Below are positions 1,465 through 5,183 of a DNA stretch of 5,183 bases, piece after piece (the stretch's first letter is position 1; each line of letters opens with the position of its first letter). This DNA comes from a virus (lineage: Duplodnaviria > Heunggongvirae > Uroviricota > Caudoviricetes): positions 1 to 5,183 of IMG/VR virus record IMGVR_UViG_2667527959_000003, one strand, 5' to 3'. The notes under the pieces were generated by a model that saw only the letters and a program-made list of their open reading frames with translations, was not told where the DNA came from and made no database searches. Made by a program: the position numbers and the translations under genes.

Positions 1465-2282
1465 GCACTATTACCAGAGAACTGGCAAAGCTGTTCAGAA
1501 AAATTACGAATTCTGAAATTGATGCGGAGGGTAACGCTCATGTTGTTTTATCTCCTGCTGATAGCCTCCTGATTAATAATGCGCGTATAGCACTGGCATC
1601 GCTCGAAGCAGAGCCTGTGGCGTATATGGTTGGCACGCAACTTCTGGAAAACATGACACAGGCGATTGCGTACAAAGCGGATACAGCCTTGCAAATTAAG
1701 CCGCTTTACACCGCCCCGTCAGCGCCGGTATCTGTTCCTGATTTGAAACCAGTTGGCTTTTTATTCGTGTCCGATGATGGCGCAGTTGCTTATTCTCCTG
1801 CTGGCTGCCCCATGAAAGGATTTAATCTAATCGGTCCGATTTACGGTGATGTGAACGCCTGCCGCGCCGCCATGCTTCAGTCCGATGGTACCCTCACCAA
1901 TGAAGGTACCATGCAGTTGTCCGGTAATTCCGAACAAATCGAACCCGTAAGTAATCGTGATGAGTTGCCGTTGGACTATCTGCAAGGTCACAAAGACGGC
2001 CTTGAATGGGCGGCGCAACTGGCAGAGGCCAATCATCCGCAAACAGGTGACTGGTTATACGACGACCCAATCGATCTTGCCAGGGCGATTCGCAAAGGTC
2101 CGGATATGCCTACTGTTCAGGCTGGCAACTCTCCGGTAACTCCGGATGGTTCAGCTAACATATTGCGGCGCTGGTTAGCATTTGGTCGCGCAATGCAAAG
2201 TTCTGGCAGTCAGTTACCTCGCCACCTGATTGCAGAAACCGAGTCCATGCTCGCAGCAGCACCGCAGCAGGAGGTGAAGTGA
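1461..2282 (+). CDS. Hypothetical protein, 273 aa, largest accessory ORF
   Basis: Long uninterrupted ORF with ATG at 1461 overlapping the upstream stop and GGAG 8 nt upstream. Ends ...AAPQQEVK*, with the last codons forming the SD for the next gene. No Walker, nuclease or other motif recognised. Confidence 0.7.
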   Translation: MSTITRELAKLFRKITNSEIDAEGNAHVVLSPADSLLINNARIALASLEAEPVAYMVGTQLLENMTQAIAYKADTALQIKPLYTAPSAPVSVPDLKPVGFLFVSDDGAVAYSPAGCPMKGFNLIGPIYGDVNACRAAMLQSDGTLTNEGTMQLSGNSEQIEPVSNRDELPLDYLQGHKDGLEWAAQLAEANHPQTGDWLYDDPIDLARAIRKGPDMPTVQAGNSPVTPDGSANILRRWLAFGRAMQSSGSQLPRHLIAETESMLAAAPQQEVK

Positions 2283-3349: not shown

Positions 3350-3541
3350 TTGAAAATGTTCATGCAAATAGACAGACGCATAGATATTAATGGCAATTCA
3401 TACTTAGTTAGATGCGAAGAGAGGCCTGACGGTGAGTGGCGTGTATATGATATTGACCGTAAGATCAATATCAGCACCATGAACAAAGACACTGCCTTTG
3501 ATGAATGGAAAGCTGAAGCTAAAAAACAACATAATTCGTAG
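3350..3541 (+). CDS. Hypothetical small protein (about 61-63 aa) in the AT-rich island
   Basis: ORF with TTG at 3350 (ATG at 3356 and 3362 in frame) and GAGG at 3337-3340. Lysine/aspartate-rich product. Sits in strongly AT-rich sequence between a putative promoter and a hairpin terminator. Confidence 0.45.
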   Translation: MKMFMQIDRRIDINGNSYLVRCEERPDGEWRVYDIDRKINISTMNKDTAFDEWKAEAKKQHNS

Positions 3542-3583
3542 AATTACAAAAACCCTAACCAATTGATGGATTTCTTTTATCTG

Positions 3584-3608
3584 AACTCGCTACGGCGAGT
3601 TTTGTTTT
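3584..3608 (+). terminator. Putative rho-independent terminator
   Basis: Inverted repeat AACTCGC (3584-3590), loop TACG, GCGAGTT (3595-3601), then a T-rich tail TTGTTTT. Confidence 0.5.
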
Positions 3609-3621
3609 ATGGAGATGATAA

Positions 3622-3789
3622 ATGCACTTTCGAGTCACAGGTGAATGGAATGGAGAGCCATTCAACAGGGTTATCGAAGCAGAGGACATCAACGACTGCT
3701 ATAACCACTGGATGCTATGGGCGCAGATAGCGCATGCAGACGTAACAAATATTCGAATTGAAGAACTGAAAGAACACCAAACCGCCTGA
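3622..3789 (+). CDS. Hypothetical small acidic protein (55 aa), absent from the supplied ORF track
   Basis: ATG at 3622 with GGAGA at 3611-3615 spaced 6 nt. Open for 55 codons (MHFRVTGEWNGEPFNRVIEAEDINDCYNHWMLWAQIAHADVTNIRIEELKEHQTA), stop TGA at 3787-3789 inside the loop of the following terminator. Confidence 0.45.
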   Translation: MHFRVTGEWNGEPFNRVIEAEDINDCYNHWMLWAQIAHADVTNIRIEELKEHQTA

Positions 3790-3802
3790 TGGCGGTTTTT
3801 TC
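3780..3802 (+). terminator. Rho-independent terminator
   Basis: Stem AACCGCC (3780-3786), loop TGAT, GGCGGTT (3791-3797), followed by a T-run (TTTTTT to 3801) then CTT. Confidence 0.65.
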
Positions 3803-3842
3803 TTGCGTGTAATTGCGGAGACTTTGCGATGTACTTGACACT
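3803..3842 (+). promoter_or_regulatory. pI-like cII-dependent promoter region (TTGC-N6-TTGC box) overlapping the start of xis
   Basis: TTGC at 3803-3806 and TTGC at 3813-3816 separated by 6 nt (GTGTAA), the cII recognition pattern known from lambda pRE and pI. In lambda the pI transcript starts just inside xis, so Int is made without Xis. Confidence 0.6.
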
Positions 3843-4047
3843 TCAGGAGTGGAACGCACGCCAGCGGCGCCCAAGAAGCCTTGAAACAGTTCGTCGATGG
3901 GTACGCGAGTGCAGGATATTCCCTCCTCCGGTTAAGGATGGAAGAGAGTATCTGTTCCACGAATCAGCGGTAAAGGTTGACTTAAATCGACCAGTAACAG
4001 GTAGCCTTTTGAAGAGGATCAGAAATGGGAAGAAGGCGAAGTCATGA
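3829..4047 (+). CDS. xis: Excisionase Xis (72 aa), lambda-type
   Basis: Product MYLTLQEWNARQRRPRSLETVRRWVRECRIFPPPVKDGREYLFHESAVKVDLNRPVTGSLLKRIRNGKKAKS matches lambda Xis as I recall it. GGAG 8 nt upstream. 23-nt overlap with int, as in lambda. Confidence 0.95.
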   Translation: MYLTLQEWNARQRRPRSLETVRRWVRECRIFPPPVKDGREYLFHESAVKVDLNRPVTGSLLKRIRNGKKAKS

Positions 4048-5095
4048 GCGCCGGGATTTACCCCCTAACCTTTATATAAGAAACAATGGATATTACTGCT
4101 ACAGGGACCCAAGGACGGGTAAAGAGTTCGGATTAGGCAGAGACAGGAGGATAGCAATTACTGAAGCAATACAGGCAAACATTGAGTTATTTTCAGGACA
4201 CAAACACAAGCCTCTGACAGCAAGAATCAACAGTGATAATTCTGTTACGTTACATTCATGGCTTGATCGCTACGAAAAAATCCTCGCCAGCAGAGGAATC
4301 AAGCAGAAGACACTCATAAATTACATGAGCAAAATTAAAGCAATAAGGAGGGGTCTGCCTGATGCTCCACTTGAAAACATCACCACAAAAGAAATTGCGG
4401 CAATGCTCAATGGATACATAGACGAGGGCAAAGCGGCGTCAGCCAAGTTAATCAGATCAACACTGAGCGATGCATTCCGAGAGGCAATAGCTGAAGGCCA
4501 TATAACAACAAACCCGGTCTCTGCCACTCGCGCAGCAAAATCAGAGGTAAGGAGATCAAGGCTTACGGCTGACGAATACCTGAAAATTTATCAAGCAGCA
4601 GAATCATCACCATGTTGGCTAAGACTTGCAATGGAACTGGCTGTTGTTACCGGGCAGCGAGTTGGTGATTTATGCGAAATGAAGTGGTCTGATATCGTAG
4701 ATGGATATCTTTATGTCGAGCAAAGCAAAACAGGCGTAAAAATTGCCATCCCAACAGCATTGCATGTTGATGCTCTCGGAATATCAATGAAGGAAACACT
4801 TGATAAATGCAAAGAGATTCTTGGCGGAGAAACCATAATTGCATCTACTCGTCGCGAACCGCTTTCATCCGGCACAGTATCAAGGTATTTTATGCGCGCA
4901 CGAAAAGCATCAGGTCTTTCCTTCGAAGGGGATCCGCCTACCTTTCACGAGTTGCGCAGTTTGTCTGCAAGACTCTATGAGAAGCAGATAAGCGATAAGT
5001 TTGCTCAACATCTTCTCGGGCATAAGTCGGACACCATGGCATCACAGTATCGTGATGACAGAGGCAGGGAGTGGGACAAAATTGAAATCAAATAA
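4025..5095 (+). CDS. int: Integrase Int (356 aa), lambda-type tyrosine recombinase
   Basis: Begins MGRRRSHERRDLPPNLYIRNNGYYCYRDPRTGKEFGLGRDRR and ends REWDKIEIK, as lambda Int does. Catalytic signature in place: R in TGQRVGDL, H..R in HELRSLSARLY, H and Y in LLGHKSDTMASQY. AGAGGA at 4013-4018 spaced 6 nt. Confidence 0.97.
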   Translation: MGRRRSHERRDLPPNLYIRNNGYYCYRDPRTGKEFGLGRDRRIAITEAIQANIELFSGHKHKPLTARINSDNSVTLHSWLDRYEKILASRGIKQKTLINYMSKIKAIRRGLPDAPLENITTKEIAAMLNGYIDEGKAASAKLIRSTLSDAFREAIAEGHITTNPVSATRAAKSEVRRSRLTADEYLKIYQAAESSPCWLRLAMELAVVTGQRVGDLCEMKWSDIVDGYLYVEQSKTGVKIAIPTALHVDALGISMKETLDKCKEILGGETIIASTRREPLSSGTVSRYFMRARKASGLSFEGDPPTFHELRSLSARLYEKQISDKFAQHLLGHKSDTMASQYRDDRGREWDKIEIK

Positions 5096-5150: not shown

Positions 5151-5168
5151 CTTTTTTATAATGACAAC

Positions 5169-5183
5169 TTAGTATAAAAAAGC
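5169..5183 (+). other. att core (O) of the lambda attachment site, reverse-complement orientation
   Basis: TTAGTATAAAAAAGC (5169-5183) is the exact reverse complement of the lambda common core GCTTTTTTATACTAA. The window ends at the last core base, so the partner arm is not visible. Confidence 0.85.

What the first reader, a model, noticed from the sequence alone, without database searches (positions are those of the whole stretch)
3622..3802. Unlisted 55-aa acidic ORF ending inside a strong terminator, with possible weak similarity to the preceding small ORF
This ORF is missing from the supplied track, presumably below its length cutoff, but has a reasonable SD and its stop codon sits in the terminator loop just upstream of the pI box. 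Both small proteins show a G-E-W motif followed about 18-19 residues later by an acidic/aromatic [DN]-[EH]-W (GEWRVYDID...FDEW versus GEWNGEPFN...YNHW). That hints at a duplicated small-protein pair, one basic and one acidic, but the similarity is weak and may be chance.
Basis: inference. Interest (0 to 1): 0.45.

Follow-up and report, generated by a model that had tools for sequence, protein, structure and literature searches.

The report
Phage lambda orf55 gene copy
The 55-codon reading frame is a real, already catalogued small gene (orf55 of phage lambda, function still unknown) that sits between transcription terminators just upstream of the prophage excision genes, and it is not a duplicate of the small gene before it.

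Summary
The ORF at 3622-3789 is real. It has a GGAG Shine-Dalgarno 7 nt upstream, and its TGA lies in the loop of a strong hairpin followed by a T-run, 2 nt before the cII box of pI.

It is the orthologue of phage lambda orf55:
- 92.7% amino-acid identity to lambda 29121-29285c.
- It is named ORF55 in the phage 434 record.
- It matches PHROG 676 over its full length.
- NCBI's PGAP pipeline annotates it.
- The cassette occurs in 2571 of 5426 complete E. coli genomes.

The hairpin at its end is the annotated t'I terminator.

The frame is under purifying selection: pN/pS is 0.26, against 0.85 and 5.4 in the other two frames. Relatives of 38-55% identity occur in early-left operons of other phages.

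The proposed kinship with the preceding 63-aa ORF fails. BLASTP finds nothing, and hhalign gives P 0.11, rising to 0.72 with a deeper profile. The predicted topologies differ. ORF63 is neutral, not basic, and accompanies orf55 in only about 25 genomes.

Verdict: known gene, ordinary finding, function still open.

The parts
3568..3582 (+). Left edge of the conserved orf55 cassette. It holds the T-rich tail (GGATTTCTTTTATCT) of the annotated tL4 terminator. The tL4 stem itself is missing in this window.
   Evidence: The similarity of 89 of about 100 related loci to this window starts at 3568. In lambda, 434, HK022 and most loci a hairpin CCTCGC-actc-GCGGGG precedes this T-run, and it is annotated tL4 in M60848.1 and X51962.1. 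Here the ORF63 module replaces the stem.
3583..3608 (+). Intrinsic-terminator-like hairpin (GAACTCGC-TACG-GCGAGTTT plus TGTTTT) immediately upstream of the orf55 ribosome-binding site. It is the second of two tandem hairpins in lambda.
   Evidence: Terminator scan. Fold energy -11.9 kcal/mol, z -4.4, with 0 of 200 shuffles folding as well. It is conserved in nearly all loci, with an A-to-G change that keeps pairing as G-U. Lambda folds into tandem hairpins.
3611..3614 (+). Shine-Dalgarno GGAG, 7 nt before the ATG.
   Evidence: Read from the sequence. Annotated as a ribosome-binding site at the same place in phage 434, OL657226.1.
3622..3789 (+). orf55: a 55-aa acidic protein, orthologue of phage lambda orf55.
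   Evidence: ORF list. PHROG 676 match at E 2.7e-39 over 1-55 of 55. 92.7% amino-acid identity to lambda 29121-29285c and to 434 ORF55. PGAP CDS WP_001597940.1 in E. coli. pN/pS 0.26. AlphaFold2 model with pLDDT 89.7, strands 2-9, 12-19 and 41-49, helix 23-37.
3779..3801 (+). t'I intrinsic terminator: stem 3779-3786, loop 3787-3790 holding the orf55 TGA, stem 3791-3798, then the T-run. It also reads as terminator-like on the minus strand.
   Evidence: Terminator scan on both strands and fold. The terminator at this position, between the last upstream gene and pI, is annotated t'-I in 434 (M60848.1), though 434's t'I has a different stem. The hairpin sequence itself is annotated t'I in P22 (L06296.1), by identity to lambda, and on the other strand as the aI RNA terminator (BK000583.1). 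The right edge of the cassette lies at 3801-3809 in about 60 loci.
3803..3816 (+). cII-binding box TTGC-N6-TTGC of promoter pI. It is a neighbour, not part of the gene.
   Evidence: Read from the sequence. The same element is annotated as the CII site and pI -35 in OL657226.1.
3829..4047 (+). xis (excisionase), the downstream neighbour.
   Evidence: Pfam Exc PF07825, E 3.9e-41.
3350..3541 (+). ORF63, the upstream neighbour. It is unrelated to orf55 and is a rare AT-rich insertion.
   Evidence: PHROG 16329. Only 7 database clusters. Model with four strands then a helix. GC 0.30-0.38 against 0.45-0.50 in the neighbours. Not annotated by PGAP.

Best explanation
The ORF is the orthologue of bacteriophage lambda orf55. 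It is a genuine, non-essential accessory gene and the last gene of the early-left (pL, N-antiterminated) operon before xis-int.

It sits in a compact, freely exchanging cassette with these parts, in order:
- terminator hairpin(s) of the tL4 region;
- a Shine-Dalgarno sequence;
- orf55;
- the t'I terminator, whose loop holds the stop codon.

Shown here:
- identity with lambda orf55 and 434 ORF55;
- purifying selection on this frame;
- a confidently predicted 6.6-kDa acidic beta-beta-alpha-beta fold;
- the position between two intrinsic terminators, with only 19 nt and no room for a promoter between the upstream hairpin and the ATG;
- distant homologues that also lie in early-left operons.

Inferred:
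- The gene is behind at least one terminator and has no promoter of its own. It should therefore be made mainly from N-modified, terminator-resistant pL transcription, that is, early after infection or induction and not in the quiescent lysogen.
- The product most likely acts by binding stoichiometrically to a host protein. It is a single small acidic domain with no catalytic or DNA-binding signature, and it shares its architecture with small phage inhibitors (Gp2, p56, AcrIE2, Dmd).
- The target is unknown. Candidates from the literature are RNA polymerase and the host replication-initiation machinery.
- A ribosome finishing orf55 would cover the t'I stem. Translation may therefore lessen termination at t'I on the same transcript. 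This is a secondary, untested consequence of the layout.
For: Identity:
- tblastn gives 92.7% identity to lambda 29121-29285c, 434 ORF55 and others.
- PHROG 676 matches over its full length at E 2.7e-39.
- The 434 record names ORF55, t-L4 and t'-I.
- PGAP annotates the 168-nt CDS.

Coding:
- 65 distinct nucleotide versions give variable sites 12/6/19 at codon positions 1/2/3.
- pN/pS is 0.26 in frame, against 0.85 and 5.4 in the other frames.
- Homologues of 38-55% identity keep F3, T6, W9, N10, E19, D22 and D25.

Fold: pLDDT 89.7, beta-beta-alpha-beta, as in the published model (PMC8614690).

Layout:
- Hairpins and T-runs flank the gene.
- The cassette edges lie at 3568 and 3801-3809.
- There are at least 5 downstream and at least 21 upstream neighbour types, including lambda-type xis, TorI-type xis and an AlpA-like gene with a P4-type integrase.

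Early-left position of distant homologues:
- In Flyfo siphovirus the homologue lies between N and cIII/kil.
- In Morganella phage it lies between the repressor and ssb.

Non-essentiality: the lambda orf55-orf60a block can be replaced (PMC12318184).

Region phenotype: orf73, ea22, ea8.5 and orf55 together have been linked to inhibition of host replication initiation (cited in PMC9239242).
Against: - No experiment on this protein is known in the searched literature. Translation and the timing of expression are inferred, not shown.
- No Pfam, NCBIfam or PADLOC family matches.
- Many prophages carry truncated, frameshifted or chimeric copies, and HK022 has a 1-nt deletion at the start. Loss is therefore tolerated.
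- The last 48 nt of the gene are also kept in P22 without the rest of the gene. Part of the 3' conservation may therefore belong to the terminator module rather than to the protein.
Confidence: 0.8

Rival explanations
1. Orf55 is a temperate-phage counterpart of T7 Gp2. It docks on the RNA polymerase beta-prime jaw and sigma70 region 1.1 and damps sigma70-dependent host transcription early in lytic growth (proposal of Donaldson 2021).
For: - The secondary-structure order is the same as in Gp2.
- Three Gp2-type 'RNA polymerase inhibitor' entries appear among the top 35 BFVD hits.
- hhalign gives a co-linear 41-column alignment with 27% identity.
- A docking model has been published (PMC8614690).
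- Another gene of the exo-xis region, orf73, does act on RNA polymerase (PMC9239242).
Against: - No BFVD hit has E<=0.001.
- hhalign probability is 1.6%, and the Smith-Waterman shuffle test gives p 0.31.
- The orf55 profile does not find Gp2 in the PDB at E<=10.
- The positions aligned with the Gp2 arginines R56 and R58 are N43 and R45. Position 43 is never basic, and position 45 is Arg only in the E. coli clade; elsewhere it is V, E, H, N, D or Q.
- Lambda depends on host RNA polymerase throughout, unlike T7 (established knowledge).
Confidence: 0.1
2. ORF55 and the preceding ORF63 are a duplicated or interacting small-protein pair.
For: - The two ORFs are adjacent.
- Both have GEW and a later [DN][EH]W motif.
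- The Smith-Waterman score is 37 against a shuffled mean of 22.5, with 48 of 5000 shuffles at or above it.
Against: - BLASTP finds nothing at E<=100.
- hhalign P is 0.11, then 0.72 with the deeper profile.
- The aligned motifs fall in different structural elements. W9 ends strand 1 in ORF55, whereas W30 starts strand 3 in ORF63.
- E8 is not conserved in the orf55 family.
- ORF63 is neutral.
- orf55 occurs thousands of times without ORF63.
- In strain H1 another gene lies between them.
Confidence: 0.03
3. The ORF is not a functional protein gene. The sequence is conserved because it carries the terminators and pI-upstream DNA that travel with xis-int, and the open frame is incidental.
For: - The flanking terminator pieces occur on their own in many phages. 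P22 keeps only window 3742-3805. Salmonella and Stx phages keep only 3568 to about 3620.
- Many truncated or chimeric copies exist.
- The gene is dispensable.
Against: - There is frame-specific purifying selection and third-position bias.
- Full-length homologues at 38-55% identity occur in other phages at other positions, without this terminator arrangement.
- The predicted fold is confident and compact.
- The Shine-Dalgarno sequence and its spacing are conserved.
Confidence: 0.04
4. The main role of orf55 is regulatory in cis. Its translation up to the stop codon in the t'I loop masks the hairpin, so that only translated (pL-derived) transcripts read through into xis-int.
For: - The stop codon lies in the hairpin loop, so a terminating ribosome would cover both stem arms.
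- Translation close to a terminator is known in general to lower its efficiency (established knowledge, not tested here).
Against: - N-modified polymerase already ignores intrinsic terminators.
- In 434 and HK022 a 114-codon gene separates orf55 from t'I, and the hairpin after orf55 is degenerate.
- Distant homologues lack the arrangement.
- Amino-acid conservation is not needed for such a role.
Confidence: 0.08

Closest known systems
Bacteriophage lambda orf55 (NC_001416 hypothetical protein at 29121-29285c; ORF55 of phage 434, M60848.1; PHROG 676)
   Same: - 92.7% amino-acid identity.
- The same length.
- The same Shine-Dalgarno sequence.
- The same position between the tL4-region hairpins and t'I/pI/xis.
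- The same predicted fold as the published model.
   Different: - Four amino-acid differences from lambda.
- The upstream neighbour is ORF63 instead of ea8.5.
- The stem of the first tL4 hairpin has been replaced.
T7 Gp2, inhibitor of E. coli RNA polymerase (PDB 2wnm, 2lmc, 4llg)
   Same: - Small acidic phage protein of about 60 aa.
- The same beta-beta-alpha-beta order.
- Early gene.
   Different: - No significant sequence or profile similarity.
- The functional arginines are not conserved.
- Lambda has no RNA polymerase of its own.
Other exo-xis region accessory genes of lambdoid phages (orf60a, orf63, orf61, orf73, ea22, ea8.5)
   Same: - Small, non-essential, mosaic early-left genes that modulate host physiology or the lysis-lysogeny decision.
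- orf55 is counted as the seventh ORF of this region (PMC3824215).
   Different: - No sequence relation to them.
- It is the only one flanked on both sides by intrinsic terminators, and the only one without any reported individual phenotype.
Morons of lambdoid phages (promoter-gene-terminator insertions)
   Same: - Compact, self-contained cassette with a terminator.
- Present or absent between conserved flanks.
- Many alternative neighbours.
   Different: - No promoter of its own was found.
- It is preceded by a terminator and is co-oriented with the early operon, so it is probably not expressed from the repressed prophage.

Membership tests
lambda orf55 / PHROG 676 | Full-length match to the family profile | tested here: met
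   phrog_676 matches at E 2.7e-39, residues 1-55 on profile positions 1-55 of 55. All 14 diverse members also match it.
lambda orf55 / PHROG 676 | High identity to the lambda and 434 reference genes | tested here: met
   92.7% identity over 55 aa to lambda J02459/NC_001416 29121-29285c and to M60848.1 ORF55.
lambda orf55 / PHROG 676 | Synteny: after the tL4-region terminator and immediately before t'I, pI and xis | tested here: met
   The stem of the first tL4 hairpin is missing here, but its T-run and the second hairpin are present.
lambda orf55 / PHROG 676 | Reading frame maintained by selection | tested here: met
   pN/pS is 0.26 in frame, against 0.85 and 5.4 out of frame. Variable sites are 12/6/19 by codon position.
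T7 Gp2 RNA polymerase inhibitor family | Gp2-like fold | tested here: inconclusive
   [not shown]
T7 Gp2 RNA polymerase inhibitor family | Detectable sequence or profile homology to Gp2 | tested here: not met
   hhalign probability 1.6%, P 0.031. The Smith-Waterman shuffle test gives p 0.31. No Gp2 chain is found at E<=10 in PDB profile searches.
T7 Gp2 RNA polymerase inhibitor family | Conserved arginine pair (Gp2 R56, R58) needed for RNA polymerase binding and inhibition | tested here: not met
   The equivalent positions are N43 and R45 (PMC8614690). Across the family, position 43 is N, D or E. Position 45 is R only in the E. coli clade and otherwise V, E, H, N, D or Q.
T7 Gp2 RNA polymerase inhibitor family | Binding to the beta-prime jaw and inhibition of sigma70 transcription | not testable with these tools
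   Needs biochemistry or a multimer structure prediction.
Paralogous pair with ORF63 | Significant pairwise or profile similarity | tested here: not met
   The shuffle test gives a nominal p of 0.01 only.
Paralogous pair with ORF63 | Same fold | tested here: not met
   [not shown]
Paralogous pair with ORF63 | Conserved co-occurrence | tested here: not met
   The orf55 cassette is in 2571 genomes, but together with ORF63 in about 25. There are at least 21 upstream neighbour types.
Moron (promoter-gene-terminator cassette) | Own promoter upstream of the gene | tested here: not met
   Only 19 nt separate the upstream hairpin from the ATG. The promoter scan finds nothing there, and the counts equal the shuffle expectation.
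Moron (promoter-gene-terminator cassette) | Terminator directly after the gene | tested here: met
   t'I at 3779-3801.
Known anti-phage defence or toxin-antitoxin proteins | Match to a PADLOC, Pfam or NCBIfam model | tested here: not met
   No family matches at E<=1 in any of the three libraries.

The most novel reading that the evidence does not exclude
The orf55 family could be a dedicated early modulator used by temperate phages. On this reading, its small acidic Gp2-like domain tunes host RNA polymerase or blocks host replication initiation, rather than shutting the host off. Its stop-in-terminator layout would couple its own translation to read-through into xis-int, and so link host takeover to excision. 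Nothing here excludes this, but nothing here supports it beyond fold class and gene position.
Probability: 0.08. Interest if true: 0.5.

Novelty: already known. Interest (0 to 1): 0.1.

Why it matters
This matters little as a discovery. The ORF has been in the lambda and 434 records for decades, is in PHROGs and in RefSeq annotation, and has a published structural model.

Three points are still of use:
- The first-stage track misses real genes below its length cutoff.
- The apparent motif sharing with the neighbouring ORF is chance, so no 'paired small proteins' story should be built on it.
- orf55 is among the most widespread prophage genes of E. coli, present in about half of complete genomes and often in several copies. 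It still has no assigned function, and the only published functional guess (Gp2-like) is weakened by the family-level residue pattern shown here.

Tried and rejected
- **No known family.** Pfam, NCBIfam and PADLOC scans gave nothing for ORF55 or ORF63. An Rfam scan of the whole window found nothing relevant.
- **Name coincidences.** Papers on 'ORF55' of phage T5 (the DRT4 trigger), of phage DruSM1 (anti-Avs ligase) and of phiKZ (RNA polymerase subunit) concern unrelated proteins.
- **No interaction data.** The lambda two-hybrid interaction map does not include orf55.
- **Paper not held.** The lambda ribosome-profiling paper could not be read under the id tried.
- **Contamination in the genome scan.** The genome-contig scan returned mostly lambda DNA contamination in unrelated genomes, which was useless for diversity.
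- **Small family.** The exhaustive HMMER search of 1.84 billion representatives found only 53 hits. Most are fragments or chimeras, and about 8 are genuinely diverged full-length relatives.
- **No viral structural relative.** The BFVD fold search gave no hit at E<=0.001.
- **Toxin-antitoxin pair.** I considered a toxin-antitoxin reading of ORF63 plus ORF55. I dropped it because there is no family match, no conserved pairing, and a terminator lies between the two genes.
- **Corrected terminator name.** I first called the hairpin at 3583-3602 'tL4'. The 434 and HK022 annotations place tL4 on the hairpin just upstream, whose stem is absent here.
- **ORF63 coding test.** Coding constraint on ORF63 could not be assessed, because only one substitution was seen among the available copies.

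Full report
**Where the window lies.** The window is the left end of a lambda-type prophage, read in the direction of early-left (pL) transcription. The genes run in this order:
- ea22-like, DUF4752 and ASCH-domain genes;
- a 63-codon ORF (3350-3541);
- the 55-codon ORF of the finding (3622-3789);
- xis (3829-4047; Pfam Exc, E 3.9e-41);
- int (4025-5095);
- the lambda att core at the very end (5165-5183, minus strand).

**The observation.** The ORF is as described.
- It runs from ATG at 3622 to TGA at 3787-3789 and has 55 codons.
- GGAG lies at 3611-3614, 7 nt before the ATG.
- The TGA lies in the 4-nt loop of the hairpin AAACCGCC-TGAT-GGCGGTTT (3779-3798), which is followed by a T-run. The fold energy is -15.2 kcal/mol.
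- Two bases after the T-run comes TTGCgtgtaaTTGC (3803-3816), the cII box and -35 region of pI. The same element is annotated in the phage 434 genome.
- The protein is acidic: pI 4.9, net charge -6.

**What it is.**
- tblastn against phage records finds the same 55-aa product in 87 records. It is 92.7% identical to lambda (29121-29285, complementary strand), to phage 434, where the 1990s record M60848.1 names it ORF55, and to many lambdoid and Stx phages.
- It matches PHROG 676 end to end at E 2.7e-39.
- NCBI's PGAP pipeline annotates the same 168-nt CDS in E. coli genomes as a hypothetical protein, WP_001597940.1. PGAP does not call ORF63.
- The cassette occurs in 2571 of 5426 complete E. coli genomes, with up to five copies per genome.
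- The terminator at the equivalent position, between the last upstream gene and pI, is annotated t'-I in 434, although there it has a different stem. The hairpin sequence itself is annotated t'I in P22, by identity to lambda.

**Is it really coding?** Sixty-five distinct nucleotide versions were collected from phage, viral-contig and genome loci.
- Variable sites number 12, 6 and 19 at codon positions 1, 2 and 3.
- Pooled Nei-Gojobori pN/pS is 0.26 in the orf55 frame, against 0.85 and 5.4 in the other two frames.
- An exhaustive HMMER search of 1.84 billion representative proteins found a small family. There were 53 hits, many of them fragments or chimeras, and about eight genuinely diverged full-length relatives.
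- Adding three phage homologues of 38-55% identity, the alignment keeps F3, T6, W9, N10, E19, D22 and D25, and mostly G7, G11, F14, H29, W30 and W33.
- In Flyfo siphovirus the homologue lies between N and cIII/kil. In a Morganella phage it lies between the repressor and ssb.

The protein is therefore conserved independently of the xis-proximal terminator layout, and it always sits in the early-left operon.

**Anatomy of the cassette.**
- Similarity of related loci to this window begins sharply at 3568 (89 of about 100 loci). It ends at 3801-3809 in about 60 loci and continues into lambda-type xis in 35.
- Downstream there are at least five module types. They include lambda xis, ORF114 plus xis as in 434 and HK022, TorI-type excisionase, and an AlpA-like gene with a P4-type integrase.
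- Upstream there are at least 21 neighbour types.
- In lambda and most loci two tandem hairpins precede the gene. The first is CCTCGC-actc-GCGGGG plus ATTTCTTTT, annotated tL4 in 434 and HK022. The second is GAACTCGC-TACG-GCGAGTTT plus TGTTTT.
- In this window the ORF63 module has replaced the stem of the first hairpin. Its T-run (3571-3581) and the second hairpin (3583-3608; -11.9 kcal/mol, z -4.4) remain.
- Only 19 nt lie between that hairpin and the ATG, and no promoter-like site is found there.
- The flanking pieces also occur alone. P22 keeps just window 3742-3805. That stretch is annotated there as t'I and, on the opposite strand, as the terminator of the c1-activated aI RNA. Many Salmonella and Stx phages keep only 3568 to about 3620.

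The terminators therefore behave as conserved junction elements, and orf55 is an optional cargo between them.

**How it probably works.** The steps shown are coding constraint, position behind a terminator with no promoter of its own, and the fold.
- The AlphaFold2 model, built from 14 sequences, has pLDDT 89.7. It has strands 2-9, 12-19 and 41-49 and a helix at 23-37, which agrees with the published model (PMC8614690).
- From the layout I infer that orf55 is expressed from N-antiterminated pL transcripts, early after infection or induction.
- From the size, the acidity and the absence of any catalytic or nucleic-acid-binding signature, I infer that it acts by binding a host protein.
- The literature gives two leads. 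One is a speculative docking of Orf55 into RNA polymerase in place of T7 Gp2 (PMC8614690). The other is an older report that the block orf73-ea22-ea8.5-orf55 inhibits host replication initiation (cited in PMC9239242).
- The gene is dispensable: the orf55-orf60a block can be replaced in viable lambda (PMC12318184).

**Testing the Gp2 idea.**
- BFVD gives no hit at E<=0.001, although three Gp2-type entries appear at E 0.05-0.1.
- hhalign of the family against Gp2 gives probability 1.6%.
- A Smith-Waterman shuffle test gives p 0.31.
- PDB profile searches do not find Gp2 at E<=10.
- The residues aligned with the functionally critical Gp2 arginines are N43 and R45. Across the family, position 43 is never basic, and position 45 is Arg only in the E. 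coli clade.

Orf55 may work like a small inhibitor, but it is not demonstrably a Gp2 family member, and the Gp2-specific binding determinants are not conserved.

**The proposed relation to ORF63.** The motifs exist, but nothing supports homology.
- BLASTP finds no alignment at E<=100.
- hhalign gives P 0.11 with shallow profiles. It gives P 0.72 once diverged orf55 relatives are included. That is the behaviour expected of a chance match.
- The Smith-Waterman shuffle test gives a nominal p of about 0.01 for a pair chosen after inspection.
- In the putative alignment W9 ends strand 1 of ORF55, whereas W30 begins strand 3 of ORF63.
- ORF63 is neutral (pI 6.6), not basic.
- ORF63 has only seven database clusters and lies in an AT-rich insert (GC 0.30-0.38).
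- ORF63 accompanies orf55 in about 25 of the 2571 genomes that carry orf55. In strain H1 another gene sits between them.

**Verdict.** This is a correct sighting of a real but long-known gene: lambda orf55, ending in the t'I terminator just before pI. The duplicated-pair interpretation is rejected. The function of orf55 remains unknown. Its most likely role is as an early-expressed small binder of a host factor, and the published Gp2 analogy is weakened by the family-level evidence gathered here.

Noticed in passing
[not shown]
   Followed up: partly
window 3742-3805; L110 901-964 and L111 601-664 (phage P22): P22 keeps only the last 48 nt of orf55 plus the t'I hairpin. This is a stretch of 95% identity, noted in the P22 record L06296.1 as identical to lambda 29106-29165. 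The hairpin is annotated there as t'I on one strand and as the terminator of the c1-activated antisense aI RNA on the other. The hairpin may therefore work in both directions.
   Followed up: partly
window 3568-3624: The T-run plus second hairpin upstream of orf55 occurs on its own, without orf55, in many Salmonella P22-like and Stx2a phages (matches to the first 35-57 nt only). It behaves as a conserved junction sequence for mosaic exchange.
   Followed up: partly
window about 3670-3676 (codons V17-E19 of orf55): At least nine database ORFs with unrelated N-terminal sequences all join the orf55 sequence at the same point (…|IEAE[DN]INDCY…). Several others are frameshift variants that start MEWR(T/A)IQQS. 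This suggests a recurrent recombination or truncation point inside the gene, as in the 'portion of orf55' reported for 933W.
   Followed up: no
L003 about 340-360 (phage HK022, X51962.1): HK022 has a 1-nt deletion right after the orf55 ATG (ATGCCTTCC against ATGCACTTTC here and ATGCACTTCC in phage 434). The orf55 frame stays open only from an ATG inside the Shine-Dalgarno region (MEMINAFRVTGEW…). The gene may be inactive or re-started there.
   Followed up: partly
L001 1700-2180 (phage 434): In 434 and HK022 a 114-codon gene is inserted between orf55 and t'I. The hairpin after orf55 is degenerate there (GCCGCC/GGAGGT). A different hairpin (GCCGCAT…ATGCGGC) serves as t'I in front of the same pI box.
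   Followed up: partly
window 2268-2280, 2453-2465, 2665-2677: The 13-mer CAGGAGGTGAAGT occurs three times (0 expected by chance), each at a gene junction where one ORF ends …QEVK and the next starts at an overlapping GTG or ATG. It is a repeated boundary sequence between the small early-left genes.
   Followed up: partly
window 5165-5183 (minus strand): The lambda att core GCTTTTTTATACTAAGTTG lies exactly at the end of the window. The window therefore ends at the prophage-host junction or within attP.
   Followed up: no
L005-L020 (genome-contig hits): Genome assemblies of unrelated taxa (Shewanella, Chromatium, Kitasatospora, Oceanobacillus, Bradyrhizobium and others) contain low-coverage contigs, several of about 48.4 kb, that are identical to phage lambda. 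These are almost certainly laboratory lambda DNA contamination in public assemblies.
   Followed up: no
L106 1883-2182 (E. coli strain H1): A 99-codon cysteine-rich ORF (CxxC…CxxC) is inserted between the upstream hairpin and orf55 in one genome. It is another alternative cargo at the same junction.
   Followed up: no
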